Positions 15,434 to 42,104 of a DNA stretch of 45,338 bases are shown one piece after another (positions within the stretch are counted from its first letter, which is position 1; each line of letters opens with the position of its first letter). Under the pieces are notes generated by a model. It saw nothing but the letters and a program-made list of their open reading frames with translations. It had not been told where the DNA came from and did not search any database. The DNA is from Acidobacteriota bacterium (GTDB taxonomy: Bacteria > Acidobacteriota > Vicinamibacteria > Vicinamibacterales > CAVVIG01). The stretch is from contig JANYHS010000282.1 in the NCBI GenBank assembly GCA_025358945.1, positions 1-45,338 of the forward strand. The letters run 5' to 3'. The translations under genes and the position numbers were made by a program.

Positions 15434-16940
15434 CGCGCTCGGCCTGTTCGTGGTGCTGGCGCTGGCGGCGCCCAGCGCGCAGGACACGGCGGTCGCGCGC
15501 GTCCGCGCGTGGCGCGCGCAGCATGAGCCGCAGGTGCTGCGTGAACTGGTCGATCTGGTCGCGATCCCGAACGTCGCCTCCAACGCGGCGGACATCGAGC
15601 GCAACGTCCAGGCACTGACCCGCATGTTCGAGAAACGCCGGTTCCTGCCGGAGACGATCCCGACCGGCGGCGCGCCGCTCGTGGTGGCCGACCGCCGCGT
15701 GCCGAATGCCACCCGCACGATCGCGTTCTATTTTCACTACGACGGCCAGCCGGTTGACGCGCGCGAGTGGACGCATGCACCGCCGTTCTCGCCCGTCATC
15801 GTCACCGACCTGACGCCGGCCGGCCGGACGATGAAGCTGGAAGAGGTGAAGGGCGCCATCGATCCGAGTTGGCGCGTGTTCGGCCGCTCCTCGTCGGACG
15901 ACAAGTCGCCGATCGTCGCATTCCTGGCGGCCGTCGATGCGCTCGACGCGACCGGCATCCCGTTGACCTCGAATATCCGCGTCCTCATGGAAGGCGAGGA
16001 GGAGGCCGGATCGCCGAACCTCGAGGCCGCCGTGCGTGCCCACGCGGATCGCTTCCGCGCCGACGCGCTGATCCTCGTCGACGGTCCGCGACACGCCAGC
16101 GATCGCGTGACGATGAACTTCGGCTCGCGCGGGATGATGGGCGCGACGATCACGGTCTACGGCGCCGCGCGCGACCTGCACAGCGGCAACTACGGCAACT
16201 GGGCGCCAAATCCCGCGCTCGATCTCGCGCGGCTGCTCGCGTCCATGAAACAGGCCGATGGCCGCGTCACCATCGACGGTTTCTACGACGATGTCGTGCC
16301 GCTCACGGCGGCAGAGCGGCAGGCGATCGACGACATCCCGAACGTCGAGTCCGAGTTGATGCAGGCGTATGGTGTGACGCGACGGGAGAACGCGGCGGAG
16401 CGGCTTGAACTGCGCCACAACCAGCCGACCATCAACGTCAACGCCCTCGAGGCGGGCGGTGGCGTCGGCGGACAAGGCCGCACGATCATCCCGGGTTCCG
16501 CGAGCGCGAAGATCGACGTGCGGCTGGTGAAGGCGATCGATCCCGCGAAACAATTCGACCGCATCGTCGCGCACGTGCGCAAGCAGGGATACTTCGTAGT
16601 CAACGCGGAACCGGATGCCGCGACGCGCGCCGCGCACCCGATGCTCGCGCGTGTGACGCGCACGGGCGGCTATCCCGCCGGACGCACGTCAATGGAGACG
16701 CCGCTGGCCGCGTCCGTGGCGAAAGCGCTCGGCGATGCTGCCGGCGGTCAGCTGGTGCGCCTGCCGACCATTGGCGGGAGCACGCCGTTCTACCTGTTCG
16801 CGGATGTGCTCGGCGTGCCGACGTTCGGGCTGTCGATGGTGAACTTCGACAACAACCAGCACGGCTCGAACGAGAACCTGAAGATCAAAAATCTGTGGGA
16901 AGGGATCGACTCAATGGCGGCGCTGCTCACCATGAAGTAG
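15354..16940 (+). CDS. Secreted M20/M25/M40 family metallopeptidase
   Basis: HYDGQP, GRSSSDDK, EGEEEAGS, DLHSGNYG, NQH. Start uncertain (possibly GTG at 15408). Confidence 0.88.
   Translation: MFRSIRFSTSEIRRQAGRVGQAGRVGSALGLFVVLALAAPSAQDTAVARVRAWRAQHEPQVLRELVDLVAIPNVASNAADIERNVQALTRMFEKRRFLPETIPTGGAPLVVADRRVPNATRTIAFYFHYDGQPVDAREWTHAPPFSPVIVTDLTPAGRTMKLEEVKGAIDPSWRVFGRSSSDDKSPIVAFLAAVDALDATGIPLTSNIRVLMEGEEEAGSPNLEAAVRAHADRFRADALILVDGPRHASDRVTMNFGSRGMMGATITVYGAARDLHSGNYGNWAPNPALDLARLLASMKQADGRVTIDGFYDDVVPLTAAERQAIDDIPNVESELMQAYGVTRRENAAERLELRHNQPTINVNALEAGGGVGGQGRTIIPGSASAKIDVRLVKAIDPAKQFDRIVAHVRKQGYFVVNAEPDAATRAAHPMLARVTRTGGYPAGRTSMETPLAASVAKALGDAAGGQLVRLPTIGGSTPFYLFADVLGVPTFGLSMVNFDNNQHGSNENLKIKNLWEGIDSMAALLTMK
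15394..15433. repeat. 9-mer array (GGYMRGGYR type) at the mltG/M20 junction
   Basis: ggcaggcag gtcgggtgg ggcaggcgg gtcgcgtcg gtag; same family as 25117 and 35469. Confidence 0.65.
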
Positions 16941-16961
16941 CGCGAAGGCTTTAGCCGAGCG
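16937..16961 (+). repeat. GTAG-headed REP-like hairpin
   Basis: GTAG CGCGAAGGC TTTA GCCGAGCG; near-identical copy at 38006-38030; contains the M20 stop codon. Confidence 0.75.
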
Positions 16962-16967
16962 TCGCCC

Positions 16968-17840
16968 TCAGCGCTCGTTCCACTTCAGCTTCTGTCTCAG
17001 CACCTCGAAGTAGCTGCGTGATGACGGACGGAGCAGGCGCACGCGGCGGTCGGCGCAGCGGATGCGGACCTCGTCGCCCTTCTCCAGCTGATAGCCGGCC
17101 TGACCGTCGAACGTGACGTAGAGCTCGTCGCGCTCGGCCATCATCGGCTGCACGCGCACGACCGACGAGGCGGGAATCACGATCGGCCGGTTGGTCAGCA
17201 TGTGCGGTGCGATCGGCGTCAGCACGATCGCATCGACGACCGGCTGGACGATCGGACCGCCGGCGGCGAGATTGTAGGCCGTCGATCCGGTGGGCGTCGC
17301 GACGATCAGGCCGTCGGCTTTGACGCGCGTGACGAACTCGTCGCCGACGAACACCGACAGATCGGTCATCCGCGCGCGCGCCGCCTTGGTGATCACCACG
17401 TCATTCAGCGACAGATGATCCGGCAGCTCCACGCCCCCCCTCATCGTCGTCGCGCGCAGCATCATGCGGGTTTCGATGCGCGCCGCGCCGCTCAGGGCGG
17501 ACTCGAGCGACGGGTACAGCTCAGGAAGCGTGGCCTCGGTCAGGAATCCGAGGCCGCCGAAGTTGACGCCGAGGATCGGGACGTCGACGTCCGCCGCACC
17601 GGCGCAGTCGGCGACCGAGAGGAGCGTGCCGTCGCCGCCGAGCACGACGAGCAGATCGACGCGGGCGACGAGCGCCGGTTTGTCGGCCACGTCCCGTCCG
17701 CGGTCTGTCGGCATCAGCGCCGCGGTCGCGGTCTCGAACACGCACTGGTGTCCCCGCGCGGCGAGCCACGACTCGATCTCGATGAGGTGCGGTGTCGCTT
17801 CGCGCAGGTGCGACTTGGCGACGATGCCGACGCGTGTCAT
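16968..17840 (-). CDS. nadK: NAD+ kinase
   Basis: LGGDGTLL, GLGFL, LND, DGLIVATPTGSTAYNLAAGGP. Confidence 0.96.
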   Translation of the reverse strand: MTRVGIVAKSHLREATPHLIEIESWLAARGHQCVFETATAALMPTDRGRDVADKPALVARVDLLVVLGGDGTLLSVADCAGAADVDVPILGVNFGGLGFLTEATLPELYPSLESALSGAARIETRMMLRATTMRGGVELPDHLSLNDVVITKAARARMTDLSVFVGDEFVTRVKADGLIVATPTGSTAYNLAAGGPIVQPVVDAIVLTPIAPHMLTNRPIVIPASSVVRVQPMMAERDELYVTFDGQAGYQLEKGDEVRIRCADRRVRLLRPSSRSYFEVLRQKLKWNER

Positions 17841-19499: not shown

Positions 19500-19560
19500 G
19501 GCGGATGAAATCTTTGTGGGTCTTGCCCCCCGCGTCCCCTGTGTCCACCGTGGTGGAGAG
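19471..19560. repeat. 90-bp element with 11-bp terminal inverted repeats and 9-mer arms
   Basis: CTCTCCACCAC ... GTGGTGGAGAG; internal units cagaggacg/cggaggaca mirrored by cgcgtcccc/tgtgtccac. Confidence 0.8.
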
Positions 19561-19568
19561 CCTCGGCA

Positions 19569-20576
19569 TCAGCTCTTCCTCGAAACAACCCACTCCGCGA
19601 TCCCGCCGAGCAGACTGCCGGTGACGCCGGCATCGGCGAGCGCCTGGTGCGCGCGTTGCAGGCATTCCGCGGCGAGCGTGCGTGAGCGATCGAGGCCGAA
19701 GATCGCCGGGTACGTGGGCTTGGCGGATGCGGCATCCTTGCCGGCGGTCTTGCCAAGCGATGCGGGATCGCCTTCGACGTCGAGGATGTCGTCCACGATC
19801 TGGAACGCGAGACCCACGTCGCTCGCGTACGCATCGATCGCCGTCACGAGCGCAGCGTCCCCGCCGGCCATGATCGCGCCGCTGACGGCGGACGCGCGAA
19901 TCAGCGCACCGGTCTTGAGCGCGTGCATGTGGCGCAGGCGGTCGCCATCGAGCGTCACCGCGTGTCCCGGGGCCTGTCCCGCGGCCTGCAAATCGATCGC
20001 CTGGCCACCGACCATACCGGCCGCGCCGGCAGCTTCCCCGACCAGTTGAATCACACGCAGCTTGCGGCGGATGACGTCAGGGTCGTCGGACACCGGCTCG
20101 CGCGCGAGCAGGGTGAAGGCTTCGGCGTGGAGGCCGTCGCCGGCGAGGATCGCAATGCCGTCGCCGTAGACGACGTGCAGCGTCGGCCGGCCGCGGCGCA
20201 GCGTATCGTCGTCCATCGCCGGCAGATCGTCGTGGATCAATGAGTAGGTGTGAATCAGCTCGATGGCGCACGCGACGGGGAGCGCGGCGGTCATCGCACG
20301 ACTGAAGTCGTGCGCCACACCTTTCGCATGACTGAAGTCGTGCGCCACTTTGGGAAGGCTGTGGCGCAGCACTTTCGCGCTGCGATCGTCAACCGCTGCG
20401 GCTGCGGCCAGCGTCATCATCGGCCGGAGGCGCTTGCCGCCGGCGAAGACGCTGTAGCGCATGGCATCACTGACGATGGCGGGGCACTTTGGCGGACGGG
20501 GCAGGCAACGTTCGAGCGCCGCGTCGACGCGCGTCCGAGTGCTGGCGAGAAAATCGGCGAGGGGATCGGCGGTCAC
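19569..20576 (-). CDS. ispA: Farnesyl/geranyl diphosphate synthase
   Basis: GGKRLRP, SLIHDDLPAMDDDTLRRGRPT, GQAID, KTGAL, FQIVDDILD; contains an insert of about 30 aa. Confidence 0.95.
   Translation of the reverse strand: MTADPLADFLASTRTRVDAALERCLPRPPKCPAIVSDAMRYSVFAGGKRLRPMMTLAAAAAVDDRSAKVLRHSLPKVAHDFSHAKGVAHDFSRAMTAALPVACAIELIHTYSLIHDDLPAMDDDTLRRGRPTLHVVYGDGIAILAGDGLHAEAFTLLAREPVSDDPDVIRRKLRVIQLVGEAAGAAGMVGGQAIDLQAAGQAPGHAVTLDGDRLRHMHALKTGALIRASAVSGAIMAGGDAALVTAIDAYASDVGLAFQIVDDILDVEGDPASLGKTAGKDAASAKPTYPAIFGLDRSRTLAAECLQRAHQALADAGVTGSLLGGIAEWVVSRKS
20295..20384. repeat. Cluster of three REP-like hairpins inside ispA
   Basis: Two minus-strand copies of GTGGCGCACGACTTCAGTCRTGCG (20295-20318, 20325-20348) and one plus-strand variant GTGGCGCAGCACTTTCGCGCTGCG (20361-20384). 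Confidence 0.9.
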
Positions 20577-20594
20577 TGGGACATCACGACGGCA

Positions 20595-23075: not shown

Positions 23076-23137
23076 GCTCCACAGCTTACAGCCATATGGC
23101 TCATTGGTTTAAGGCCAGTCGCCGGCTGTTAAATTGA

Positions 23138-23196
23138 TATGAGTGTTATTAACTAAGATTTACTGCTTGACTGATACTCAATATGACGCCTATACT
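23138..23196 (+). promoter_or_regulatory. dnaK promoter with dyad operator-like sequences
   Basis: TTGACT (23167-72), 18 nt, TATACT (23191-96); ATGAGT-N7-ACTAAG at 23139-57 and ACTCAA at 23176-81. Confidence 0.6.
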
Positions 23197-23223
23197 TCTT
23201 TCAACTTAGGAAGCGAGGACAGC

Positions 23224-30685: not shown

Positions 30686-31747
30686 GTGAAGCTGCGCGAC
30701 ATCGCGAATCGGCTGCAGTGTCGCCTCGAAGGCGATGGCGATGTGGATATCGTCCGCGTCGCGGCGATTCATGCCGCGCAGCCAGGCGATCTGACCTTCG
30801 TCGCCAACGCCCGCTATCTTCCGCAACTGGCCACGACACGCGCCTCGGCGGTGATCCTGGGCCGGACCAAGGGCGAGGCGCCGCACCCGCCGTGCGCCGT
30901 GCTGCACACCGACGATCCCTACACTGTGTTCGCGCGCGCCGTTGCCATGTTCGCGCGCACCACGCCGCCGGCCAAGGGCGTTGATGCGCACAGCGCCGTG
31001 GCCGCCGACGCGGTGCTCGGCCCCGATGTGTCCATCGGCCCGTTCGTCACGGTCGGCGCCGGCGCCACGATTGGCGCGCGCACCATCATTCACCCTAACG
31101 TGGTCATCGGTCCGGGCGCCGTCATCGGCGACGACTGCGTGATCCATTCTCAGGTGTCGATTCGCGAGCACGTGGTTCTCGGCGATCGCGTGACCCTGCA
31201 CAACGGCGTCGTCGCCGGCAGCGACGGCTACGGCTTCGCGCGGCAGAAGGACGGCACGCACCTGAAGATCCCGCAGCACGGCGACGTCGTCATCGAAGAC
31301 GATGTGGAGATTGGCGCGAACTCGACCATCGATCGCCCCGCGATTGGCGAAACGCGGATCAGCGCCGGCACGAAGATCGACAACTTGGTCCACATCGCAC
31401 ATGGCGTCGCGGTCGGGCGTCGCGTGCTGCTCGCGGCGCAGGTGGGCATTGCCGGCAGCACGACGATTGGCGACGATGTGATGATGGCGGGGCAGAGCGG
31501 GGTGACGGGACACATCACCGTCGGCGATCGTGCGATCGTCGGCGCAAAGAGCGCGGTTCTGCAGTCGGTGGCTGCCGGTACGTTCGTGACCGGCCATCCG
31601 GCGTTCCCTCACGCCGACTGGCGGAAGGCCGCGCTGGCGTTCCGCCAACTGCCGCAGATGAAGAAGCGTCTCGAAGCGCTCGCGCAACGCATCGTCGAAC
31701 TCGAGGAGAAGCTTGCTGAATGTCAGACACCCCAGAAGGATCGCTAG
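30686..31747 (+). CDS. lpxD: UDP-3-O-acylglucosamine N-acyltransferase
   Basis: Hexapeptide repeats, GSDGYGFA, KIPQ.G.V.IEDDVEIGAN..IDR, KIDNLVHIAHGV. Confidence 0.96.
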   Translation: MKLRDIANRLQCRLEGDGDVDIVRVAAIHAAQPGDLTFVANARYLPQLATTRASAVILGRTKGEAPHPPCAVLHTDDPYTVFARAVAMFARTTPPAKGVDAHSAVAADAVLGPDVSIGPFVTVGAGATIGARTIIHPNVVIGPGAVIGDDCVIHSQVSIREHVVLGDRVTLHNGVVAGSDGYGFARQKDGTHLKIPQHGDVVIEDDVEIGANSTIDRPAIGETRISAGTKIDNLVHIAHGVAVGRRVLLAAQVGIAGSTTIGDDVMMAGQSGVTGHITVGDRAIVGAKSAVLQSVAAGTFVTGHPAFPHADWRKAALAFRQLPQMKKRLEALAQRIVELEEKLAECQTPQKDR

Positions 31748-32589
31748 CATCACCCGTGGCGCAGGCTTTCACGCCTGCGGTGTTCGCATTAGGTTTCCTG
31801 CTCGCCTTCGCTGCTCTCGCCGCTGCGCAAGCGCCGCAACCAACGGTCGTTCCCGCACCCGCGGCGCCGGAATTTCTGACGCGCTACGACTTCCACATGT
31901 CGGCGACGTCGTTGCTGCCCTCGGACGCGACGCCGGCCCGGGTCGTGGCGGACGAGCGCTTTTCGTGGGACACGCATTTCGGCGGATCGTTCGACATCGC
32001 TGATCTCGTCGTGGCGCGCCTCGGTGTCGTCGCCGATTATCAGGCGGTGCTCGGCAGTGAATACCGGCCGTTCGATCCGAATCAGGGCAGCTATACGCTC
32101 GAGGGCTTCATCTCGGCGCGGATCAATGCCGACACGGAAGTCGCCGGGATCTTTCATCACGTGTCGCGTCATCTGAGCGATCGGCCGAAACCGTTTGCGG
32201 TCGCCTACAACGAGATCGGCGGCCGGGTGATGCGGCACGTGACACTCGCCACCGCGACCATTGATGTGGATCTCGAAGGCGGCCGGGCGACCCAGCATTC
32301 CTATGTGGACTACACCTGGCTGGGTGAAATGCACGTGCTCGTGCGCCATCCGATCAGTCCGCGTCTCGGCGTGTTTGGCCATGGTTCCGGGCAGCTGTTC
32401 GCGGTCGACGAGACCCTCGCGCACCGCGGCACCCAAGCGGGCGGGTTGATTGAGGTGGGTCTGCGGGTGACCGGCCGGGCTGGTGTGCTGGAGATTTTTG
32501 CGGGCTACGAGAAGCGCGTGGACGCCGATCCGCTCGACCGCCTGTCGCAGCGATGGGGCCTCGCCGGGTTCCGTCTACTCAGTAGATAA
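31720..32589 (+). CDS. Secreted, probable outer-membrane beta-barrel protein
   Basis: Signal peptide; alternating amphipathic strands; ends ...WGLAGFRLLSR. Family not recognised. Confidence 0.6.
   Translation: MSDTPEGSLASPVAQAFTPAVFALGFLLAFAALAAAQAPQPTVVPAPAAPEFLTRYDFHMSATSLLPSDATPARVVADERFSWDTHFGGSFDIADLVVARLGVVADYQAVLGSEYRPFDPNQGSYTLEGFISARINADTEVAGIFHHVSRHLSDRPKPFAVAYNEIGGRVMRHVTLATATIDVDLEGGRATQHSYVDYTWLGEMHVLVRHPISPRLGVFGHGSGQLFAVDETLAHRGTQAGGLIEVGLRVTGRAGVLEIFAGYEKRVDADPLDRLSQRWGLAGFRLLSR
31756..31779 (+). repeat. GTGG-headed REP-like hairpin
   Basis: GTGG CGCAGGC TTTCAC GCCTGCG. Confidence 0.75.
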
Positions 32590-32598: not shown

Positions 32599-33957
32599 AT
32601 GGTTAGGTCCCTTCGTGTGCTGGCCGCGGCGTTGCTGGTCAGCGGCGTCTTCACGGCCGCCACCCAGCCGCTGCGTGCGGCATCCCGTCCGCCGAAGCTG
32701 CAGTACGAAATCACGTCACTGCCAAACGGCCTGACCGTCGTGCTGTCCGAGGATCACTCGACACCGATCGTCCACGTGCAGCTGGTCTATCACGTCGGGT
32801 CAAAAAATGAAAAACCTGGCCGCACCGGCTTCGCGCATCTGTTCGAACACCTGATGTTCAAGGGCTCGAAGAACGTGCAGCCCGAGGCGCACACCTCGAT
32901 GCTCGCGTCGGTCGGCGGCCAGAGCAATGCCTACACGACCGATGACGAGACCGTGTTCTGGGAGACCGTGCCGTCGCAGTACCTGCCGCTGACTCTGTGG
33001 CTCGAGGCCGATCGCATGGCGACGCTGCGCATCGACAAGGACACGTTCGCCAACGAGCGCGACGTGGTCAAGGAAGAACGGCGCATGCGCGTCGACAACC
33101 AGCCCTACGGCCGGTTGAACGAGATCATCTACGACCAGGCGTTCACCGTGCACCCGTACAAGCACGCGACGATCGGCAGCATGGAGGATCTCCAGGCGGC
33201 GTCGGTCGAGGACGTCCGCGATTTCTACAGGACGTTCTACGTGCCGGTGAACGCGACGATGGTGATCGTCGGCGACTTCGATTCGGCGCAGGCGCTGCAG
33301 CTGGTGAATACCTACATGGGCCGCGTGCCGAAGTCTGACCGCGCCGTGCCGCGCGACATTCCGCAGGAACCGCCGCAGACGAAAGAGAAGCGCGTCACGC
33401 TGCAGGAGCCCTGGCCGCTGCCCGCTGTCGTCGTCGGGTACCACGTGATCAAGGATGGCAACCCCGACTCCTATCCGCTGCACATCGCCGCGAAGGTGCT
33501 GTCCGACGGCCAGACGTCGCGCATCTACAAGAAGCTGGTCTACGAAAAGCAGATGGCCGTCGCCGCGTTCGGCAACGCCAACCTGATTGAGGATCCGAAC
33601 CTGTTTTACGCCGTCGCGATTGTGCAGCCGGGGCACACGACCGAGGAAGTGGCCGACGCGTTGATCGTGGAACTCGATCGGTTGAAGACCGAGCCGATTA
33701 CCGATCACGAGTTGCAGCGCTCGAAGAATCAGTTTGCGCGCGACTACATCATGGGCCGCGAGTCGAACCAGCAGAAAGCCGGGCAGCTGTCGCACGCCGT
33801 CGTCATTCACCACGACATCAAGACGGCGGACGGCGAGTTCGAGATCTTTCAGAACATCACGGTGGCCGACGTGCAGCGCGTGGCGAAGACCTACTTCAGG
33901 CCGGAGAACCGCCTGGTGCTCACGCTGATGCCGTCCGGGAAGGCCGGGGCCCAGTGA
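32599..33957 (+). CDS. M16 family zinc peptidase, catalytic subunit
   Basis: Signal peptide; GFAHLFEHLMFKGS (HxxEH), SNAYT, LEADRM, VKEERR. Confidence 0.94.
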   Translation: MVRSLRVLAAALLVSGVFTAATQPLRAASRPPKLQYEITSLPNGLTVVLSEDHSTPIVHVQLVYHVGSKNEKPGRTGFAHLFEHLMFKGSKNVQPEAHTSMLASVGGQSNAYTTDDETVFWETVPSQYLPLTLWLEADRMATLRIDKDTFANERDVVKEERRMRVDNQPYGRLNEIIYDQAFTVHPYKHATIGSMEDLQAASVEDVRDFYRTFYVPVNATMVIVGDFDSAQALQLVNTYMGRVPKSDRAVPRDIPQEPPQTKEKRVTLQEPWPLPAVVVGYHVIKDGNPDSYPLHIAAKVLSDGQTSRIYKKLVYEKQMAVAAFGNANLIEDPNLFYAVAIVQPGHTTEEVADALIVELDRLKTEPITDHELQRSKNQFARDYIMGRESNQQKAGQLSHAVVIHHDIKTADGEFEIFQNITVADVQRVAKTYFRPENRLVLTLMPSGKAGAQ

Positions 33958-36272
33958 TGTGGCGCACGACTTCAGTCGTGCGATCGGCGCGATCCGCATG
34001 CCTGAAGGCATGCGCCACTTGTGCCATCAGCCTGCTGTCAGTCTCTGCGTCCGCGCAGTCGGCCGCCTGGCCGACCGAGCGGCCGCCGCAGCCGTTGCCG
34101 GCGCGTGCAATCACGTTCCCGCCCTACGAGGTCCAGACGCTGCCCAACGGGCTCCAGGTCGTCGTCGTCATGCACCACGAGCAGCCGGCGGTGACGATGC
34201 GCCTGCTCGTCCGCGCCGGCACGTCCTCCGATCAACGCGAGAAGCTCGGGCTCGCGCACCTGGCCGCGTCGCTCCTCGATCAGGGCACGACGACCAAGTC
34301 GGCGCAGGAGATGAATGACGCGGTGGACTTCATCGGCGGGGCGATGGGCGCCGGCGCCGGCACCGATCTCACGTTCGTCAACATGGTCGTGATGAAGGAC
34401 AGCTTCGACACCGGGCTGCGCATGCTGTCCGACATGGCGAGGCAACCGGCGTTCGCGACCGCGGAGGTCGAGCGGCAGCGGCAGCAGATGTTGTCGGGCC
34501 AGACCGTCAGCCTCGAGGATCCCGGGTACATCGCGAACTCGGTGTTCGATCGCCTGGTCTACGGCTTCCACCCGTACGGCATGCCGGAAAACGGCACGCC
34601 GCAGACGATCGCCGCGCTCTCGCGGGCCGACCTGCAGGCGTTCCACGCGCGCTTCTTCATGCCGAATAATGCGATCCTCGCGATCGTGGGCGACGTCACC
34701 GCGGACGAAGCGTTCACCGCGGCGAAAAAAGTGTTCGGCGACTGGGAGAAGCACGACCTGCCGGTGCAGACGTTTGTTGGACCGCCCGATCCCACGCGCC
34801 GCGTGATCGTCGTCAACAAGCCGGACGCCGTACAGACCGAAGTGCGTGTCGGCCACCTCGGCATCTCGCGCACGCACCCCGACTACATGGCGGTGAATCT
34901 CGCCATTCGGATTCTTGGCGGCGAAGGCAGCAACCGGCTGCATCAGGTCCTGCGGACGGAGCGCGGGCTCACCTACGGCGCGCAGGCGAACATGGACACG
35001 CTGAAGGAGACCGGCGATTTCGAAGCCGAGACCAACACGCGAACCGAGGCCACCGGCGAAGTGCTGCGGCTGATTGTCGACGAATTCTGGCGCATGCAGC
35101 GCGAGCGCGTCGGCGATCGCGAGCTCGACGGCGCGAAGGCGTATCTCACCGGCAGTTTCCCGCTGACCATTGAGAAGCCGGAGTCGATTGCGATGCAGGT
35201 GGTGAACGCGCTGTTCTACGGCTTGCCGCTCGCGGAGCTCCAGAATTTCCGCGAGCGCGTCAACGCTGTGACCCCCGATGACATCCAGCGCGTCGCCAAG
35301 GAGTTGCTGCGTCCGGATCGCCTGTCGGTGGTTCTGGTCGGCAACTCGGCGGCGTTCGCATCGCAGTTGCGCGGCGCCGGCTTCGGCAGTTTCGAAGCAG
35401 TGGAACTCGGTGATCTGGATCTGACCACGGCGAACTTCAAGCGAGCGGCGGTCAAGGCGCAGCAGGATGCGGGCGGGCCAGGTAGGTCAGGTGGGGCTGG
35501 TAGGTCAGGTGGGTTTGAGGGGTGGGGCGTAGCGCACGACGTTAATCGTGCGGCGACCTTGAACTATCAGCTGGCGCCGCTGGCGAGTCGTCCACCGGCG
35601 GATCCGCGACCGGAGGATGCGCCGAAGGCGCTGGCGCTGCTCGACCGCGCGATCGCGGCGAAGGGTGGCCTGGAGAAACTGCGCGGCATCAAGACCATTG
35701 TCGCCAGGCAAACGCTGGTCAGCCTCGACTCCGATCGCGCGGCGACGTCAGAGACCACCAACTACCTTCAGTACCCCGATCACTTCCGCGTCGAATCGCC
35801 GATGCTGATCCAGGCGTTCGACGGCGCGCAGGCGTGGCTGAAGGACGTTCGCGGCGTGCACGACGGTGGGGAGCCGATGGCGCGCGATTCACGTCTGGTC
35901 ATGCGCCGCGACGTCGTCTCGTTGCTGCTGGCGGCGAAAGACGGGACGTTGACGCCACGGCTGCTGCCCGACGTGAAGGATCCCGACGGGCGCGTGACGC
36001 ACACGCTCGAGTTGTCGGCCAGCGATCTCAATCCGATCGTGCTGTATATCGATCCCGAGTCCGGCCAGATCGGCAAGCGCCTGTTCACCGCCGACGCTCC
36101 CGGTCGGCCGCTCATCGAGGAACAGTTTTTCGACTACCGCGAGGTCGACGGCGTCCAGGTGTCGTTCCGCGCCACGCAGAAGGTCGGGAATTTGTCGGTC
36201 GAGCGGCGCGCGATAGACGTGAAGATCAACACGCCCATTGATCCCGCGATGTTCAAACGCCCGGTGTCTTGA
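33954..36272 (+). CDS. M16 family non-catalytic subunit with additional C-terminal domain
   Basis: HxxEH replaced by HLAAS; SNRL..LRTERGLTYG; Gly-rich linker followed by a beta-rich domain of about 215 aa. Confidence 0.88.
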   Translation: MMWRTTSVVRSARSACLKACATCAISLLSVSASAQSAAWPTERPPQPLPARAITFPPYEVQTLPNGLQVVVVMHHEQPAVTMRLLVRAGTSSDQREKLGLAHLAASLLDQGTTTKSAQEMNDAVDFIGGAMGAGAGTDLTFVNMVVMKDSFDTGLRMLSDMARQPAFATAEVERQRQQMLSGQTVSLEDPGYIANSVFDRLVYGFHPYGMPENGTPQTIAALSRADLQAFHARFFMPNNAILAIVGDVTADEAFTAAKKVFGDWEKHDLPVQTFVGPPDPTRRVIVVNKPDAVQTEVRVGHLGISRTHPDYMAVNLAIRILGGEGSNRLHQVLRTERGLTYGAQANMDTLKETGDFEAETNTRTEATGEVLRLIVDEFWRMQRERVGDRELDGAKAYLTGSFPLTIEKPESIAMQVVNALFYGLPLAELQNFRERVNAVTPDDIQRVAKELLRPDRLSVVLVGNSAAFASQLRGAGFGSFEAVELGDLDLTTANFKRAAVKAQQDAGGPGRSGGAGRSGGFEGWGVAHDVNRAATLNYQLAPLASRPPADPRPEDAPKALALLDRAIAAKGGLEKLRGIKTIVARQTLVSLDSDRAATSETTNYLQYPDHFRVESPMLIQAFDGAQAWLKDVRGVHDGGEPMARDSRLVMRRDVVSLLLAAKDGTLTPRLLPDVKDPDGRVTHTLELSASDLNPIVLYIDPESGQIGKRLFTADAPGRPLIEEQFFDYREVDGVQVSFRATQKVGNLSVERRAIDVKINTPIDPAMFKRPVS
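33959..34018. repeat. Inverted REP doublet (REPIN-like), 60 bp
   Basis: GTGGCGCACGACTTCAGTCGTGCG, 12 nt, CGCATGCCTGAAGGCATGCGCCAC. Confidence 0.88.
35469..35552. repeat. 9-mer array plus REP-like hairpin inside the M16 gene
   Basis: gccaggtag gtcaggtgg ggctggtag gtcaggtgg, then GTAGCGCACGACGTTAATCGTGCG (35529-35552). Confidence 0.85.
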
Positions 36273-37429: not shown

Positions 37430-37440
37430 ATTGAGGAGTC

Positions 37441-37995
37441 ATGATTACCAGGCGAGCGCTCCTACTGCTGTCGTCGGTCCTTCTGTTCGCTGTCTCGGCG
37501 CGGGCCACCGTTCTGATTTCCGCCGATCTCGGCGAACTGTCTCGCGACGCGCTGGCCATCGCACGCGGCCGGGTGACCGCGCTCGATGCGCAGTGGACCG
37601 AGGATCGCGGGACGATTGAAACCATCGTCACGCTCGAGGTCGAGAGCTATCTCAAGGGCGGACTCGGGTCGACGCTGAAATTCCGTGTGCCCGGCGGTGG
37701 ACTCGGCCGCTTCCGCAGCATCGTTGTCGGCGCTCCCGAGTTTGCCGTCGATCAGCGCATCATCGTGTTCCTGGGGGCGCGGGGACCGAGTGTGCCGCAC
37801 GTCCTCGGATTGAGTCAGGGTGTCTTTCGCATGGCGCGCGCGTCTGACAATTCCGAGTGGCTCGTCACGTCGCCCGTGTTACTGCCTGCGACGACCGGCG
37901 CCCTGCGGCTCGTGCGTGGTGATCCTTCGCGCCGCGCGGTCGCGCTCGCCGATTTCGAGCAGACCGTCCGGACGCTGGCCGGAGGTGCGAAGTGA
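37441..37995 (+). CDS. Secreted hypothetical protein
   Basis: SD GAGGAG, signal peptide, beta-rich mature part; coupled to the matrixin gene (GTGA overlap). Confidence 0.75.
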   Translation: MITRRALLLLSSVLLFAVSARATVLISADLGELSRDALAIARGRVTALDAQWTEDRGTIETIVTLEVESYLKGGLGSTLKFRVPGGGLGRFRSIVVGAPEFAVDQRIIVFLGARGPSVPHVLGLSQGVFRMARASDNSEWLVTSPVLLPATTGALRLVRGDPSRRAVALADFEQTVRTLAGGAK

Positions 37996-39029
37996 AGGCG
38001 CATCCGGAGCGCGAAGGCTTCAGCCGAGCGACGCGTCCGCTCGCCCTGATCGTTGTCGCTACGTTGCTGTTCGGCCAGGCCACGCCCGCGTTCGCCTACC
38101 TGAAATTCGGCGTGCCGGTGCGAGGCCAGCAGGTGACGCTGAAATGGTCGCAGACGCCGGTGCGTTATTTCGTGTCGGATACCGGGGTCTCCGGCGTCAC
38201 CTCGGCGGACCTGCAGGGCGCGGTGGGACGCGCGTTCGCCAGCTGGCAGGCCGTGCCGACGGCGTCGATCACGTATCAATTCGCGGGCGTGACGTCGGCG
38301 AGTCCGGGAAAAGACGATGGCGCGTCGGTGCTGGGATTTCAGAGCCGACCCGATCTGGATCGCGTGCTCGCGTCGACGAGCTTCCTGGTCGATGCGTCGA
38401 CCGGTGCGCTCATCGAGTCCGATATTTTTTTCAACGCCGCGTTTCCCTGGTCGGTCTCGCCGAGCGGTGAGCCCGGCAAGTTCGATGTCGAGAGTATTGC
38501 GCTCCACGAGATCGGCCACTTCAGCGGCCTCGGCCACTCCGCGCTGGGCGAGACCGAGTTGCTCAGTACTGGCGGCCGGCGCGTGTTGAGCGCGGAGGCG
38601 GTGATGTTTCCGATCGCGTTCGCCGCTGGCAGCATCGCGTCGCGTACGCTGAAGGCCGACGATATCGCCGGCATTTCCGATCTGTATCCCGACGGCAACT
38701 TCGCCACCACCGACGGCAGCTTGTCCGGGCGCGTGACGAAAGACGGTCAGGCGATATTCGGTGCGCACGTCGTTGCCTTCAACGTGGCGACGGGGCTGAT
38801 GGTCGGCGGATTCACGCTGAACGCGCAGGGACAGTTTTCGATTGGCGGCCTGTCGCCAGGCCCGCACATCGTTCGCGTCGAGCCGCTCGATGACGCCGAC
38901 ACCACAAGTTTCTTTGACGCCGCGCAAAACGTGGATATCGACTTCCGGGTGGCCTACCTCGATCGCGTCATCGTGGTGCCCAAGGGCGGGGATAGCGGAG
39001 CGGTGACGCTGACGGTCGTGCGCAAATGA
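37992..39029 (+). CDS. Matrixin (M10-like metzincin) metalloprotease with C-terminal beta-sandwich
   Basis: HEIGHFSGLGH (HExxHxxGxxH), Met-turn AVMFP, LKADDIAGISDLYP. Confidence 0.9.
   Translation: MKAHPEREGFSRATRPLALIVVATLLFGQATPAFAYLKFGVPVRGQQVTLKWSQTPVRYFVSDTGVSGVTSADLQGAVGRAFASWQAVPTASITYQFAGVTSASPGKDDGASVLGFQSRPDLDRVLASTSFLVDASTGALIESDIFFNAAFPWSVSPSGEPGKFDVESIALHEIGHFSGLGHSALGETELLSTGGRRVLSAEAVMFPIAFAAGSIASRTLKADDIAGISDLYPDGNFATTDGSLSGRVTKDGQAIFGAHVVAFNVATGLMVGGFTLNAQGQFSIGGLSPGPHIVRVEPLDDADTTSFFDAAQNVDIDFRVAYLDRVIVVPKGGDSGAVTLTVVRK
38006..38030 (+). repeat. REP-like hairpin in the matrixin N-terminus
   Basis: GGAGCGCGAAGGCTTCAGCCGAGCG; two mismatches to 16937-16961. Confidence 0.7.
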
Positions 39030-39712
39030 CGCGCCTGACGACCGCCGCGCTGCTGATTGCCGGAGGCCTGTGGCTGCAGCCATCCGCCGCGTTCGCGCAG
39101 GCCGCGGATTCGCCGCCCACGCGGTTCGAGGTCGGGTTCGGCGTACTCTGGATCGGCAGTCAGCCGCTCGGCGCGAGCGGCGCCAACGAAACCACCGGCG
39201 CAGGCGGCGCCACGCCGCTGTTCAGCACGACCAGCGAGTTGGCGAGCGCCGCGGGCATCGATGGCCGCATCGGCGTGCGCGTGACGCGTTCGCTGGTGGC
39301 GGAAGCCGAAGCGTCGTATCTCAAGCCGCAACTGCGCATCGCGATCAGCGGCGACACGGAAGGCGCGGCGGCGCTGACCGCGATGGAAACGATTCAACAG
39401 TTCACCGTCGGCGGCGGCGTGCTGTGGTACGTGCCGAACCGCGGATGGTCGCCGCGCGTCGCGCCGTTCGCCATGGCGGGCGCCGGATACCTGCGGCAGC
39501 TGCACGAGCAGAACACGCTTGTCGAGACCGGCAGCTTCATCCAGTTCGGCGGTGGCGCCGCCCTTCTCCTGAGCTCGCAGCCGCGGTTCCACATGAAGGG
39601 CATCGGCGTCCGCGCCGATCTCCGCGCCATCCGGCGGTCGAAAGGTGTGGCGTTCGACGGCGGCGGGCGGACGGCGCCGGCGTTGGGCGCGTCGGCATTT
39701 GTGCGATTCTGA
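39026..39712 (+). CDS. Small outer-membrane beta-barrel protein
   Basis: Signal peptide, amphipathic strands (PFAMAGAGY, GVRADLR), C-terminal Phe. Confidence 0.72.
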   Translation: MTRLTTAALLIAGGLWLQPSAAFAQAADSPPTRFEVGFGVLWIGSQPLGASGANETTGAGGATPLFSTTSELASAAGIDGRIGVRVTRSLVAEAEASYLKPQLRIAISGDTEGAAALTAMETIQQFTVGGGVLWYVPNRGWSPRVAPFAMAGAGYLRQLHEQNTLVETGSFIQFGGGAALLLSSQPRFHMKGIGVRADLRAIRRSKGVAFDGGGRTAPALGASAFVRF

Positions 39713-40461
39713 TGGCCGTGCCGGCCATTGAATTTCGCGGCGTCTCGTTCGCGCGACCCGGCCGGCCGCGCATCCTCGATCACTTCTCCCTGACCGTGGA
39801 ATCAGGCGACGTGCTTGCGCTCGTCGGCCGCAGCGGCGCCGGCAAGAGCACGCTGCTGAAGCTGGTGAACCGTCTGTTGCTGCCAGACGAGGGCGCCGTG
39901 TTGGTCGAAGGACGAGACACGCGCGAGTGGGAGCCGATCGCATTGCGACGCAACGTTGGGTACGTGCTGCAGGATGTCGGGCTGTTCCCGCACATGTCGG
40001 TGGCAGACAATGTCGCCGTGGTGCCGCGGCTCGAAGGGTGGCCGGCGGATCGCATCGCGCCGCGCGTCCACGAACTGCTCGACCTGGTCGGGCTGCCCGC
40101 GGGCGAGTTTGCCGCGCGGTGGCCTGACGAATTGTCGGGCGGGCAGCGTCAGCGCGTCGGTGTGGCGCGCGCGCTCGCTGTTGATCCGCCCGTGCTGCTG
40201 ATGGACGAACCGTTCGGCGCGCTCGATCCGCTCACGCGGGCTGAGCTGCACGCGGAGTTCCGCCGCATCCAGTCGCGCCTCCGCAAAACCGTGATCATCG
40301 TCACGCACGACATGGGTGAAGCCTTCGCGCTTGCCGATCGCGTCGGCGTGCTCGAGGACGGTCAGCTGATCGCCTGCGACCGCGCCGCCGCGGTGGCCGC
40401 GTCCACCGACCCGCGTGTTCGGCGTCTGCTCGACGCGATCGTCTCGGTACCCCGATCATGA
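39712..40461 (+). CDS. Osmoprotectant-type ABC transporter ATP-binding protein
   Basis: GRSGAGKS, LSGGQRQRVG, LLMDEPFGALDP, VTHD; true start MAVPAIEF. Confidence 0.92.
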   Translation: MAVPAIEFRGVSFARPGRPRILDHFSLTVESGDVLALVGRSGAGKSTLLKLVNRLLLPDEGAVLVEGRDTREWEPIALRRNVGYVLQDVGLFPHMSVADNVAVVPRLEGWPADRIAPRVHELLDLVGLPAGEFAARWPDELSGGQRQRVGVARALAVDPPVLLMDEPFGALDPLTRAELHAEFRRIQSRLRKTVIIVTHDMGEAFALADRVGVLEDGQLIACDRAAAVAASTDPRVRRLLDAIVSVPRS

Positions 40462-40491
40462 CCTTGGTGTCCTTAGTGTCCTTTGTGGTGA
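40461..40491. repeat. 9-mer array (CCTTNGTGT)
   Basis: accttggtg tccttagtg tcctttgtg gtga between the ABC genes. Confidence 0.7.
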
Positions 40492-40504
40492 CCAGGCCCG
40501 TCGA

Positions 40505-42037
40505 ATGACCCGGCTGTTGTCTTTCTGGTTGTCGCACCGCGCCGAGCTTGCGAGCCTGTTCGGCCAACACGTGCTGCTCGTCGCCGGCTCCACGTTCGTC
40601 GCGGTCGCGATTGGCGTTCCGCTCGGCATTTTCTCCGCGCGCCGCCCGCGCATGGCGTCGCCGCTGATGGCCGTAGCCAGCATCGTGCAGACGATTCCGA
40701 GCCTCGCAATGTTCGGCTTTCTCCTGCCCGTGCCGTTCATCGGCGGTGTCGGCGCGCGCGCGGCGCTCGTCGTGCTGATTCTCTACGGACTGCTTCCGAT
40801 TGTGCGGACGACGATCGCGGGGCTGCGCGGAATTGATCCCGCGATTCGCGAAGCCGGCGTCGCGATGGGGATGACGGCTGGCGAACTGCTGCGGCAGGTC
40901 GAACTGCCGCTGGCGCTGCCCTCGATCGTGGCCGGCATCCGCGTGGCCGCAGTGGTCGGCGTCGGCTCGGCGACGATCGCCGCGGCGATCGGCGCGGGCG
41001 GGCTCGGCGAGTACATCTATCGCGGCTTGTCGATGGTGGACACCACCGTGATCCTCGCCGGTGCCATTCCGGCGGCCGTGCTCGCGCTGGTTGTCGACGG
41101 TTCGCTGCTGTGGCTGGAGAAGCAGTTGTCGTCTCGCCGGCGATCCTCGTCACGCCGTGTGGTCGCGACGACCGCCGCGGTCATTCTCGCGGCCGTGATG
41201 GTGGCGAGCGCGTCCGCCGCGCGTCGTGCCAGTGGAGCGATCGTGGTCGGCTCGAAGAATTTCACTGAGCAGCTGGTACTCGGCGAACTGCTTGCGCAGA
41301 CCATTGAGCGCGACGCCGGTCTGCCGGTGGACCGCCGGCTGAATCTCGGCGGCACGTTGATCTGCGATCAGGCGCTGATCACTGGCGACATCGACGTCTA
41401 CGTCGAATACACCGGGACCGCGCTCACCGCCGTGTTTCATCAACCCGTCAGCAACGATTCGAGCGCGGTGTTCGACACCGTGCGCGCGCTCTACGCGAAA
41501 ACCGGACGCACGCTGCTGCCGCCGCTCGGGTTCAACAACACGTTCGCGATCCTCGTGCGCGGCGACGAGGCGCGCTCTCGGGGTCTGCGCACGGTGGACG
41601 ATGCGGCGCGGGAGTCGGGGCATTGGAAGGCCGGGTTCGGCTACGAGTTCGTCGAGCGGCCGGACGGCTACGACGGCCTGGCGAAGGCGTACGGCATGCG
41701 CTTTCCGGAGGCGCCGCGCGTGATGGACCTGACGCTCAGTTATCGCGCGCTGGCGGCGGGGCAGGTGGACATGATTGCCGGCGACGCCACGGCAGGACTA
41801 ATCAAGGGGCTGGACCTGTTCCAGCTCGAGGACAACCGCCACTACTTTCCGCCCTACGACGCGGCGGCGGTCGCGCGCGCGGCGACGCTCCTGCGTTATC
41901 CGCAGCTGCGCACGGCGCTCGAGAAGCTCTCAGGCCGCGTCTCGGCCGCCGACATGCGCGCCATGAACTACGCCGCCGACGTCGAGCACCGCGACGTCCC
42001 GGTGATCGTTCGCGAATTCCTCGCCCGCACGCGCTAG
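40505..42037 (+). CDS. Quaternary-amine ABC transporter permease/substrate-binding fusion
   Basis: QTIPSLA, EAA loop, IGAGGLG, then VGSKNFTEQ, YVEYTGT, NNTFA, FPPY. Confidence 0.92.
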   Translation: MTRLLSFWLSHRAELASLFGQHVLLVAGSTFVAVAIGVPLGIFSARRPRMASPLMAVASIVQTIPSLAMFGFLLPVPFIGGVGARAALVVLILYGLLPIVRTTIAGLRGIDPAIREAGVAMGMTAGELLRQVELPLALPSIVAGIRVAAVVGVGSATIAAAIGAGGLGEYIYRGLSMVDTTVILAGAIPAAVLALVVDGSLLWLEKQLSSRRRSSSRRVVATTAAVILAAVMVASASAARRASGAIVVGSKNFTEQLVLGELLAQTIERDAGLPVDRRLNLGGTLICDQALITGDIDVYVEYTGTALTAVFHQPVSNDSSAVFDTVRALYAKTGRTLLPPLGFNNTFAILVRGDEARSRGLRTVDDAARESGHWKAGFGYEFVERPDGYDGLAKAYGMRFPEAPRVMDLTLSYRALAAGQVDMIAGDATAGLIKGLDLFQLEDNRHYFPPYDAAAVARAATLLRYPQLRTALEKLSGRVSAADMRAMNYAADVEHRDVPVIVREFLARTR

Positions 42038-42040
42038 CAG

Positions 42041-42104
42041 GTAGCGCACGACTCGCGCACGTGGCGCACGACTCGCGCACGTAGCGCACGACTTCAGTCG
42101 TGCG
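42041..42104 (+). repeat. Tandem REP-derived array (two truncated 20-bp units plus one full hairpin)
   Basis: GTAGCGCACGACTCGCGCAC GTGGCGCACGACTCGCGCAC GTAGCGCACGACTTCAGTCGTGCG. Confidence 0.9.

What the first reader, a model, noticed from the sequence alone, without database searches (positions are those of the whole stretch)
16937..42104. GTAG/GTGG-headed REP family with covarying stems, singlets, doublets and tandem arrays
The consensus GTRG-CGCACGAC-TTCA-GTCGTGCG occurs at 20295, 20325, 33959, 35529 and 42081. Variants keep the pairing while changing sequence (CGCATGCC/GGCATGCG, CGCAGGC/GCCTGCG, CGCAGC/GCTGCG). A GTAG-type tetranucleotide plus hairpin is the established substrate form for RAYT (TnpA-REP) HUH enzymes. 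Unusually, most copies here are translated rather than extragenic; the unit is 24 bp (8 codons).
Basis: partly seen in the sequence, partly recalled or inferred. Interest (0 to 1): 0.7.

Follow-up and report, generated by a model that had tools for sequence, protein, structure and literature searches.

The report
REP hairpin repeats translated inside genes
This is a family of about 140 short hairpin-forming DNA repeats (REPs) with their own dedicated transposase gene in an uncultured soil or sediment acidobacterium, and unusually many copies sit in frame inside ordinary genes and are read as part of the proteins.

Summary
The 24-nt unit GTRG-CGCA-NNNN-TTCA-NNNN-TGCG occurs at all five stated places, against 0 in shuffles. 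A covariance model finds 9 clear copies and 1 degenerate copy in the window, all within 16937-42104. The window's own 3.9-Mb genome, an uncultured Vicinamibacterales-like Acidobacteriota MAG, holds 140 strict matches with real stem covariation.

The RAYT reading is supported. A 165-aa gene on another contig scores above NCBIfam's cut-off for REP-associated tyrosine transposase. It keeps the HUH and Tyr motifs and has clusters of this REP on both sides, as does its 98%-identical orthologue in a sister species.

The "translated" claim is largely right. By a GC3-based gene map, 42 of 137 copies lie inside coding regions and 14 more supply a stop codon. Hosts include IspA, PurH, an Hsp70 paralogue and AcnX, and sister species show clean empty sites. 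Same-strand internal copies use one frame, V-A-x-x-F-S-x-A, in 24 of 27 cases.

Intragenic GTAG/GTGG REPs were already described (PMC3733652). This is a new member of a known kind, with a marked frame bias.

The parts
16937..16961 (+). Degenerate REP copy (25 nt, GTAG head). The TAG of its head is the stop codon of an M20 peptidase ORF (15354..16940).
   Evidence: CM 26.8 bits; sequence; the Pfam M20 domain runs to residue 525 of 528.
19569..20576 (-). Host gene: ispA-like polyprenyl synthase carrying three in-frame REPs in the loop before the DDxxD motif.
   Evidence: Pfam PF00348, E 5e-56, 274 residues against 233 profile positions; loop comparison with 30 relatives; in the AF2 model residues 74-92 are coil, with pLDDT below 50 over 75-88.
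20295..20318 (-). REP copy, exact consensus, read as VAHDFSRA (IspA residues 87-94).
   Evidence: 41.3 bits.
20325..20348 (-). REP copy with one mismatch, read as VAHDFSHA (IspA residues 77-84); direct repeat of the previous copy at a 30-nt period.
   Evidence: 38.2 bits.
20361..20384 (+). REP copy (CGCAGC/GCTGCG variant) on the strand opposite to ispA, read as RSAKVLRH (residues 65-72); head-to-head with 20325.
   Evidence: 32.1 bits.
31756..31779 (+). REP copy 9 nt after the lpxD stop. It lies in frame 0 (VAQAFTPA) of ORF 31720..32589, just before a signal-peptide-like hydrophobic core. Whether it is translated depends on which start codon is used.
   Evidence: (37 bits).
33959..33982 (+). 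REP copy, exact consensus, starting 2 nt after the stop of the first M16 peptidase gene; first half of a tail-to-tail doublet.
   Evidence: the doublet folds as one long hairpin, -23.5 kcal/mol, z -4.5.
33995..34018 (-). REP copy (CGCATGCC variant), second half of the doublet. It is read as SACLKACAT immediately upstream of the signal-peptide core of the second M16-like protein.
   Evidence: 39.2 bits.
33954..36272 (+). Host gene: 772-aa M16-like peptidase with a conserved C-terminal extension. It holds a REP in its variable linker and has a REP doublet at its 5' end.
   Evidence: Pfam; orthologues cover the full length in G009, G005 and G008; alignment.
35529..35552 (+). REP copy (decayed loop), in frame 0, read as VAHDVNRA. 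The G009 orthologue has the intact VAHDFSRA at the same site.
   Evidence: 31.1 bits.
38006..38030 (+). Degenerate REP copy (GGAG head, same subtype as 16937) in codons 5-13 of the matrixin-like ORF 37992..39029, read as EREGFSRA before a hydrophobic segment.
   Evidence: CM 18.6 bits, E 0.034; sequence with GGAGG 7 nt before the GTG start; Pfam.
42041..42080 (+). Two 20-nt tandem copies of the REP head plus 5' arm only.
   Evidence: Sequence; weak CM hits at 42041 and 42061.
42081..42104 (+). REP copy, exact consensus with GTAG head, extragenic: it lies 44 nt after the TAG stop of the opuA-like ORF and upstream of a short ORF that starts at 42148.
   Evidence: 39.4 bits.

Best explanation
These are REPs of the GTAG super-family, here mostly with a GTGG head. 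Each is a 24-nt element made of a 4-nt head, an 8-bp GC-rich stem and a TTCA loop. They are most likely spread in trans by the RAYT (a Y1 HUH enzyme) encoded on contig C84 of the same genome, the only one of three Y1 genes found that this REP flanks. The inferred mechanism follows E. coli TnpA-REP and IS200/IS605 transposases: the enzyme recognises the head plus the hairpin on single-stranded DNA, then cuts and rejoins it. What is special here is where copies survive. The unit has a length divisible by three and has no stop codon in 5 of 6 frames. Copies therefore persist in the usual places (just after stop codons, sometimes donating the stop) and also in frame inside genes. Within genes they land in loops, linkers and signal-peptide N-regions. 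Selection, or possibly insertion preference, leaves almost only the frame that reads V-A-x-x-F-S-x-A. Shown here: the repeat family, its covariation, the REP-flanked RAYT, the in-frame copies in conserved genes, empty sites in sister species, and the frame bias. Inferred: that this RAYT mobilises these REPs, that the inserted peptides are expressed and tolerated, and that the frame bias comes from selection.
For: Family size: 140 strict matches against 12 for the reversed control. With the TTCA loop required, 82 against 0 in G000, 110 in G009, 114 in G001 and 0-8 in 28 other relatives.

Covariation: 0 of 500 shuffles reach the observed values, and the dominant inner stems differ between G000 and G001.

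RAYT: three PF01797 hits in the genome. The C84 gene scores 106.5 bits on NF047646 (cut-off 80). It aligns to ISDra2 TnpA (2xm3) and E. coli TnpA-REP (4er8), with PDHAHLL on the HUH motif and YILENPV on YIYINPV. REP clusters lie on both sides, including a six-copy array with a 32-nt period and identical GTGGCGCAGCCCG...CTGCG units at both flanks. The 98%-identical G009 orthologue is flanked in the same way.

Intragenic copies: 28 of 137 by the strict two-flank GC3 test and 42 of 137 by the gene map, against 69% of 3000 random 24-mers. Pfam domains span the insertion in LarC, AcnX, Hsp70, PurH, a class I aminoacyl-tRNA synthetase, GIDA, a histone deacetylase and IspA.

Empty sites: a 27-nt insert in AcnX is absent from G008, G005 and G004. 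An 81-nt insert in the Hsp70 paralogue (63 nt in G009) is absent from G001, G004 and G005.

Frames: among same-strand internal copies, 24 use frame 0 against 2 and 1 for the other two frames, chi-square p = 7e-9. The strict test gave 16 of 16 in frame 0. In other assemblies 5 of 6 same-strand internal copies use frame 0.

Structure: the AF2 model of IspA puts the REP-coded stretch in a low-confidence coil between conserved helices.
Against: No experiment or RNA or protein data show RAYT activity or translation of the inserts.

G001 has 114 copies, but its closest RAYT found is only 44-45% identical, in an 88%-complete assembly, so strict co-occurrence of REP and RAYT is not shown.

The head is GTGG in 85% of copies rather than the canonical GTAG.

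Singlets dominate: 80 of 105 clusters. This does not fit the REPIN (inverted doublet) model of the mobile unit.

Gene calls are my own GC3-based approximation, not a gene finder. Copies counted as internal are not independent events: doublets share a frame relation, one palindromic unit at C180 was counted on both strands, and 2 to 4 of the 42 have non-REP loops and may be chance matches.

Codon-usage fit ranks frame 0 best (+0.09 against -0.49 and -0.77 log2-odds per codon). It does not explain why the two opposite-strand frames are equally used.
Confidence: 0.88

Rival explanations
1. The frame bias reflects where and how the elements insert (a target motif or a phase-specific mechanism), not selection after random insertion.
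For: Weakly conserved flanks: A at -2 in 45% of copies, and A, T, C at +25 to +27 in 51%, 49% and 43%. Measured insert footprints are 27 nt, that is 24 + 3. At one orthologous linker site of the M16-like protein, three species carry three different GTAG-REP families, each with the head read as a Val codon. This suggests repeated use of one site.
Against: No defined target sequence was found. Copies at ORF 5' ends, many of which are probably untranslated, show a much weaker bias of 13:3:7, as expected if selection acts only where the copy is translated. Frame 0 also has the best codon-usage fit.
Confidence: 0.2
2. The hairpins are host structural or regulatory elements (terminators, mRNA stabilisers, gyrase sites), and their link to the RAYT gene is incidental.
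For: Copies are enriched just after stop codons and between genes: 30% intergenic against 11.5% for random positions, and 10% overlapping a stop against 1.8%. PMC3733652 discusses such roles (passages read).
Against: No T-run follows the stem, so the copies are not intrinsic terminators. Three species have about 100 copies each, while 28 relatives have 0-8. Sister species show clean empty sites. REP clusters flank the RAYT in two species. Paralogous RAYTs in G011 and G005 are each flanked by a different GTAG REP family of their own.
Confidence: 0.06
3. The repeated unit is a protein-level motif (VAHDFSRA-like) kept for a peptide function, and the DNA palindrome is secondary.
For: A strong single-frame preference.
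Against: About 30% of copies lie between genes. Copies inside genes occur on both strands and give unrelated peptides (xARLKxCAT, RxxExxRH). Stem positions covary as base pairs, not as codons. The hosts are unrelated proteins, and the IspA insert is predicted to be a disordered loop.
Confidence: 0.02
4. The in-gene copies are artefacts of metagenome assembly or binning.
For: The genome is a 372-contig MAG. Logan contigs of four runs from one study do not bridge 20278-20412.
Against: The same insertions, with small differences, occur at the same sites in a separately assembled sister species, G009. Every insert keeps the frame open and has coding signatures on both sides.
Confidence: 0.02

Closest known systems
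GTAG-tagged REP families with intragenic copies (Di Nocera, De Gregorio and Rocco 2013, PMC3733652; abstract and passages read)
   Same: A head tetranucleotide followed by a 6-9-bp stem. Sub-families differ by complementary stem changes. The Opitutus terrae GTAG-20 family has mostly GTGG heads. The head's TAG is donated as a stop codon. Copies lie wholly inside ORFs as singles, dimers or groups that encode 20-30 residues. RAYT genes are flanked by REPs.
   Different: The host is an uncultured Vicinamibacterales-like acidobacterium. [quoted passage not shown] I found no statement there on reading-frame preference: 'reading frame' occurs only twice in the main text, and at least one of those is the phrase 'open reading frames'. 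Its Additional file 3, an old .xls listing REP-encoded residues, could not be read here and may bear on this.
E. coli REP/BIME with TnpA-REP (RAYT; PDB 4er8)
   Same: A Y1 HUH enzyme of about 165 aa with HUH and Y-x-x-N-P-V motifs that align. The gene is embedded in REP clusters.
   Different: Sequence similarity is low (E 1e-4). From recall, E. coli REPs are longer, imperfect and almost wholly extragenic. Here about a third of copies lie inside genes.
Rickettsia palindromic elements (RPE; Ogata et al. 2000, as cited in PMC3733652 and PMC3184786; only the citing passages were seen)
   Same: Palindromic repeats inserted in frame into genes that probably still encode functional proteins. This family works like an RPE in that respect.
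   Different: RPEs are about 105-146 bp (table in PMC3184786) against 24 nt here. Sequence relatedness was not tested. The RPE-1 type has no known RAYT partner (recalled).
REPIN-RAYT systems of Pseudomonas (Bertels and colleagues; PMC8049555, search listing and start of abstract only)
   Same: A lineage-specific repeat population that goes with a single-copy RAYT. The doublet at 33959/33995 folds as one long hairpin.
   Different: Doublets are the minority here, 21 of 105 clusters against 80 singlets.

Membership tests
REP, GTAG super-family | Short (20-40 bp) palindrome able to form a stem-loop | tested here: met
   24 nt with an 8-bp stem and 4-nt loop; DNA fold -9.5 kcal/mol, z -4.3; 95.7% of cells paired across 26 distinct copies.
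REP, GTAG super-family | GTAG or a degenerate GTRG tetranucleotide at one end | tested here: met
   Head position 3 is G in 85% and A in 15% of 136 copies; positions 1, 2 and 4 were fixed by the search pattern. PMC3733652 reports families with GTRG heads and with mostly GTGG heads.
REP, GTAG super-family | Many dispersed copies in the genome | tested here: met
   140 strict matches in 3.9 Mb against 12 for the reversed control; 105 clusters.
REP, GTAG super-family | Predominantly extragenic location | tested here: inconclusive
   42 of 137 copies are internal to coding regions, 14 overlap a stop, 9 lie in C-terminal tails, 31 lie at ORF 5' ends and 41 are intergenic. Copies are depleted from gene interiors relative to random positions (31% against 69%), but far less so than the name implies. 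The gene map is approximate.
RAYT (REP-associated tyrosine transposase, NF047646 / PF01797) | Score above the curated family cut-off | tested here: met
   NF047646 at 106.5 bits against a cut-off of 80, whereas the IS200 model scores 29.6 against 55. PF01797 at 46 bits against 23.
RAYT (REP-associated tyrosine transposase, NF047646 / PF01797) | HUH motif and catalytic tyrosine region | tested here: met
   PDHAHLL aligns to PEHMHCI, and RYILENPV to DYIYINPV, of 4er8. Which residue is catalytic is recalled, not tested.
RAYT (REP-associated tyrosine transposase, NF047646 / PF01797) | Gene flanked by copies of the cognate REP | tested here: met
   Contig C84: REPs at 569-715 upstream and 1276-1507 downstream of ORF 789-1286. 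The G009 orthologue locus L075 has REPs on both sides.
RAYT (REP-associated tyrosine transposase, NF047646 / PF01797) | Binds and cleaves REP single-stranded DNA | not testable with these tools
   Needs purified protein and oligonucleotides.
REPIN (inverted REP doublet as the mobile unit) | Copies occur mainly as inverted pairs at a fixed spacing | tested here: not met
   80 singlets, 21 doublets and 4 larger clusters; the spacings of the head-to-head pairs range from 7 to 84 nt.
Intrinsic terminator | GC-rich hairpin followed by a run of T | tested here: not met
   T frequency at +25 to +36 is 14-24%, except 49% at +26.
Rickettsia palindromic elements (RPE) | Element of about 105-146 bp | tested here: not met
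   The unit here is 24 nt (27-nt footprint). RPE size is from the table in PMC3184786.

The most novel reading that the evidence does not exclude
In this acidobacterial genus, GTAG-type REPs behave as mobile in-frame peptide cassettes. A 24(+3)-nt unit is inserted, possibly at preferred sites, into loops, linkers and signal-peptide N-regions of housekeeping proteins. It is kept almost only in the frame where the head is a Val codon. It can be replaced at the same orthologous site by the REP family that is current in each species. It can also expand by 18-nt partial-head tandem copies, such as (VAQDSK)n in an Hsp70 paralogue. Together these would give RAYT-linked, possibly reversible, protein-length variation.
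Probability: 0.12. Interest if true: 0.75.

Novelty: new member of a known kind. Interest (0 to 1): 0.48.

Why it matters
This extends the REP/RAYT partnership to uncultured Vicinamibacterales-like Acidobacteriota. My two literature searches found no such report.

The data set is unusually clean for asking how selfish hairpin repeats get written into proteins. It contains dozens of in-frame copies in well-known enzymes. It has matched empty sites in sister species, a 24:2:1 reading-frame bias, and one linker where three species carry three different REP families.

That makes two questions testable. One is whether selection or insertion preference shapes intragenic REPs. The other is whether REP sites are re-used.

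It also matters for annotation. REP-coded stretches lengthen loops, supply start regions and stop codons, and could be mistaken for errors or for novel motifs.

Tried and rejected
I used my own hairpin scan instead.

2. A relaxed scan (up to 2 mismatches, at least 7 pairs) gave 263 hits, but about 23 per Mb in a Markov-shuffled control. I dropped it in favour of the strict pattern.

3. Expression: no RNA holder was listed for window:19900-20700. Logan contigs of the four DNA runs, all from one study, end at the repeat and do not bridge 20278-20412, so they neither confirm nor contradict the triplet in ispA.

4. Earlier notes of this scan held nothing on this genome's repeats.

5. The other two Y1 genes of the genome (C184, C223) are not flanked by this REP family. 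C223 has two unlike GTAG hairpins nearby, and I did not pursue them.

6. Codon usage as the sole cause of the frame bias: it fits the same-strand frames but not the opposite-strand ones.

7. In the ispA and PurH loops of more distant relatives I looked for other REP families. I found only one decayed copy, in G008 ispA.

8. CRISPR, terminator and protein-motif readings were rejected on layout, flanks and strand distribution.

9. Weak CM hits at 11117 and 170 (E above 0.1) were not examined and are not counted.

Full report

Yes. The consensus GTRG-CGCACGAC-TTCA-GTCGTGCG matches at 20295(-), 20325(-), 33959(+), 35529(+) and 42081(+) with at most 3 mismatches. None of 100 shuffles gave a match.

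A hairpin scan added 20361(+), 31756(+) and 33995(-).

I aligned 26 distinct copies from the window and other contigs. The 8-bp stem pairs in 95.7% of cells, against 82.2% in shuffles. Twenty-seven cells change on both sides, against 8.5 in shuffles. No shuffle out of 500 reaches either value, and slid registers pair in only 19-43% of cells.

A covariance model built on that alignment was run on the whole window with filters off. It returned the nine training copies from the window (26.8-41.3 bits), which match by construction. It also returned one new degenerate copy at 38006-38030 (18.6 bits). Nothing convincing lies outside 16937-42104. The single-stranded DNA hairpin is stable: -9.5 kcal/mol, z -4.3.

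**2. How big is the family and whose is it?**

The window is contig C146 of a 3.9-Mb, 372-contig genome estimated at 96.8% complete.

- The pattern GTRGCGCA-N12-TGCG occurs 140 times, against 12 for the reversed control.
- With the TTCA loop required it occurs 82 times, against 0.
- Inner stems fall into sub-families that covary: ACGAC/GTCGT, AAGGC/GCCTT, AAGAC/GTCTT, GAAC/GTTC and others.
- The exact consensus, searched across one genome per species, occurs only in five Acidobacteriota or Vicinamibacterales MAG assemblies, in 40 loci.
- Among the 31 genomes searched, G000 and two sister species have 82-114 copies, one has 8 and the rest have 0-5.
- The dominant inner stems in G001 (GGGC/GCCC, CGGC/GCCG) differ from those in G000.
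- Flanks are only weakly conserved, and no T-run follows the stem.
- Of 105 clusters, 80 are singlets, 21 are doublets and 4 are larger.

**3. Is there a RAYT?**

Yes. Pfam Y1_Tnp hits three places in the genome.

The hit on contig C84 is a 165-aa ORF.

- It scores 106.5 bits on NCBIfam's REP-associated tyrosine transposase model (cut-off 80). It falls below the cut-off of the IS200 model.
- It aligns to ISDra2 TnpA and to E. coli TnpA-REP (4er8). PDHAHLL lies on the HUH motif, and YILENPV lies on YIYINPV.
- Upstream, at 569-715, are two full copies of the 24-nt unit, two longer-loop variants and two partial heads. Downstream, at 1276-1507, is a six-copy array with a 32-nt period plus one more copy.
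- Its stop codon is the TGA in the loop of the first downstream copy.

The 98%-identical orthologue in G009 also has REPs on both sides. More distant RAYT paralogues (41-53% identity) in G011 and G005 are flanked by other GTAG-headed hairpin families of their own.

Against a strict pairing: G001 has 114 copies, but its closest RAYT found is 44-45% identical, in an 88%-complete assembly.

**4. Are copies translated?**

*In the window.* Three copies lie inside the ispA-like polyprenyl synthase gene (Pfam E 5e-56). They sit between the GGKRLRP helix and the IELIHTYSLIHDDLP motif, and they read RSAKVLRH, VAHDFSHA and VAHDFSRA.

- The closest relative, G009, has two copies there.
- G008 has one decayed copy.
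- G002 has a 7-residue loop with no copy.
- An AlphaFold2 model (pTM 0.84, 17-row alignment) puts residues 74-92 in a coil between conserved helices, with pLDDT below 50 over 75-88.

The other window copies are placed as follows.

| Copy | Location |
|---|---|
| 35529 | In the variable linker of a 772-aa M16-like protein whose full length is conserved in G009, G005 and G008; G009 has the intact VAHDFSRA at the same site |
| 33959/33995 (doublet) | Starts 2 nt after the upstream gene's stop. The conserved signal-peptide core that follows has no ATG, GTG or TTG of its own, so translation must start in or before the doublet (inference) |
| 38006 | Follows a GTG start that has GGAGG 7 nt upstream |
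| 31756 | Translated only if the ATG at 31720 is the real start |
| 16937 | Gives the TAG stop of an M20 peptidase |
| 42081 | Extragenic, preceded by two 20-nt partial-head repeats |

*Genome-wide.* No gene finder was available, so I used GC3 periodicity to call coding regions.

- The strict test required an open frame through the copy, at least 50 codons on each side, and a coding signature in both flanks with the copy itself excluded. It found 28 of 137 copies internal.
- A more lenient gene map gave 42 internal, 14 with an ORF's stop inside the copy, 9 in C-terminal tails, 31 at ORF 5' ends (ambiguous) and 41 intergenic or unclassified.
- The same map% of 3000 random 24-mers internal. The copies are therefore depleted from gene interiors, but far from excluded.
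- Restricting to the 119 copies with TT-starting loops gives 36 internal.
- Two to four of the 42 internal copies have non-REP loops and may be chance matches. One palindromic unit was counted on both strands.

I scanned 20 of the 23 host ORFs from the strict test against Pfam. I left out the window's own M16 ORF and two doubtful hits. Known domains span the insertion in LarC (two contigs), AcnX, an Hsp70 paralogue, PurH, a class I aminoacyl-tRNA synthetase, GIDA, a histone deacetylase, a pyridine-nucleotide oxidoreductase and others.

Sister species show clean empty sites.

- AcnX has a 27-nt insert that is absent from G008, G005 and G004.
- The Hsp70 paralogue has an 81-nt insert made of three 18-nt partial heads, a full copy and 3 more nt. 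G009 has 63 nt there. G001, G004 and G005 have none.
- The PurH site is variable in all species.

**5. Reading frames**

| Set | Frame counts |
|---|---|
| Internal, same strand as the gene | 24 in the frame reading V-A-x-x-F-S-x-A, against 2 and 1 in the other two frames (chi-square p = 7e-9) |
| Strict test, same strand | 16 of 16 in that frame |
| Internal, opposite strand | The two open frames are used about equally: 7 xARLKxCAT, 5 RxxExxRH |
| Copies at ORF 5' ends | 13:3:7, a weaker bias |
| Loci from other assemblies | 8 of 55 copies internal by the strict test; 5 of the 6 on the gene's strand use the same frame |

Frame 0 fits the genome's codon usage best: +0.09 against -0.49 and -0.77 log2-odds per codon. 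That does not explain the opposite-strand pattern.

The counts are not independent events, because doublets tie two frames together.

**6. What it most likely is**

It is a GTAG-type REP family with its RAYT. Dispersal by the RAYT acting on single-stranded hairpins is inferred from the homology to TnpA-REP and IS200/IS605 enzymes. It was not tested.

The unit's length of 24 nt (27-nt footprint) and the lack of stops in 5 of 6 frames let copies survive inside genes. There they lie in loops, linkers and signal-peptide N-regions. The single-frame preference points to selection on the peptide or its codons, or less likely to an insertion preference.

One observation favours site re-use. At the orthologous M16 linker, G000 and G009 carry this family. 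G001 carries a GTAG-T-GCAGGCC family. G004 carries two dimers of a GTAG-GGGCCGAC family. G005 carries none. In each case the head is read as a Val codon.

**7. Comparison with what is known**

Di Nocera and colleagues (PMC3733652; abstract and passages read) already describe:

- GTAG REP families with complementary stem sub-families;
- GTGG heads in Opitutus terrae;
- TAG stop donation;
- REPs wholly inside ORFs that encode 20-30 residues;
- RAYT genes flanked by REPs.

In-frame palindromic elements are also known from Rickettsia (cited there and in PMC3184786, passage read).

I found no report for Vicinamibacterales: one search returned 0 papers, and the listing held nothing relevant. I found no statement on frame bias in the passages I read. 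The relevant supplementary table is an old .xls file that I could not open.

The finding is therefore a new member of a known kind. Its notable features are a well-documented high intragenic fraction, a frame bias and site turnover.

**8. Limits**

- There is no expression or protein evidence. No RNA run was listed, and contigs of four DNA runs do not bridge the ispA repeats.
- Gene calls are approximate.
- The genomes are fragmented MAGs, and repeats tend to break contigs, so copy numbers are lower bounds.

Noticed in passing
L109 (G001), L110 (G004), L106 (G009); window 35460-35600: The same linker of the orthologous 772-aa M16-like protein holds different GTAG-REP families in different species. 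Each is in frame with the head read as Val. G005 has none. This suggests that one intragenic site is re-used or its REP replaced.
   Followed up: partly
L094 (G000 C148) and L117 (G009); window 42041-42080; L106 (G009): Tandem copies of the REP head plus 5' arm only. There are three 18-nt units in the Hsp70 paralogue of G000 (two in G009), two 20-nt units before the copy at 42081, and about five 18-nt units (read as MWRTTS/MWRATS repeats) upstream of the second M16 gene in G009. The number of units varies between species.
   Followed up: partly
L001 1276-1459 (G000 contig C84): A six-copy REP array with a 32-nt period lies directly after the RAYT gene. The RAYT stop codon is the TGA in the loop of the first copy.
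   Followed up: yes
G000 C223:3134-3559 (L003) and C184:14764-15153 (L002): Two further Y1_Tnp genes that this REP family does not flank. The C223 gene (43% identical to the RAYT) has two unlike GTAG-headed hairpins nearby. Their copy number in the genome was not checked.
   Followed up: no
window 35430-35520 and orthologues: A glycine-rich, low-complexity repeat (GRSGGAG / GWAG-like) of variable length lies next to the REP in the M16 linker.
   Followed up: no
window 42148-45289: A short ORF starting at 42148 is followed by a PIN-domain gene (42392-42868) and a type I restriction-modification HsdM methylase (42890-45289). The first two look like a vapBC-like toxin-antitoxin pair next to a defence gene. 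The short ORF itself was not scanned.
   Followed up: no
window 15354-16940: In the M20 peptidase ORF, the M20_dimer match spans 155 residues against 101 profile positions. This may mark another insertion.
   Followed up: no
G001, G008: G001 has 114 copies of the family but no close RAYT was found in it. G008 has only 8 copies and no close RAYT. This pattern would fit decay of the repeat family after loss of the RAYT.
   Followed up: no
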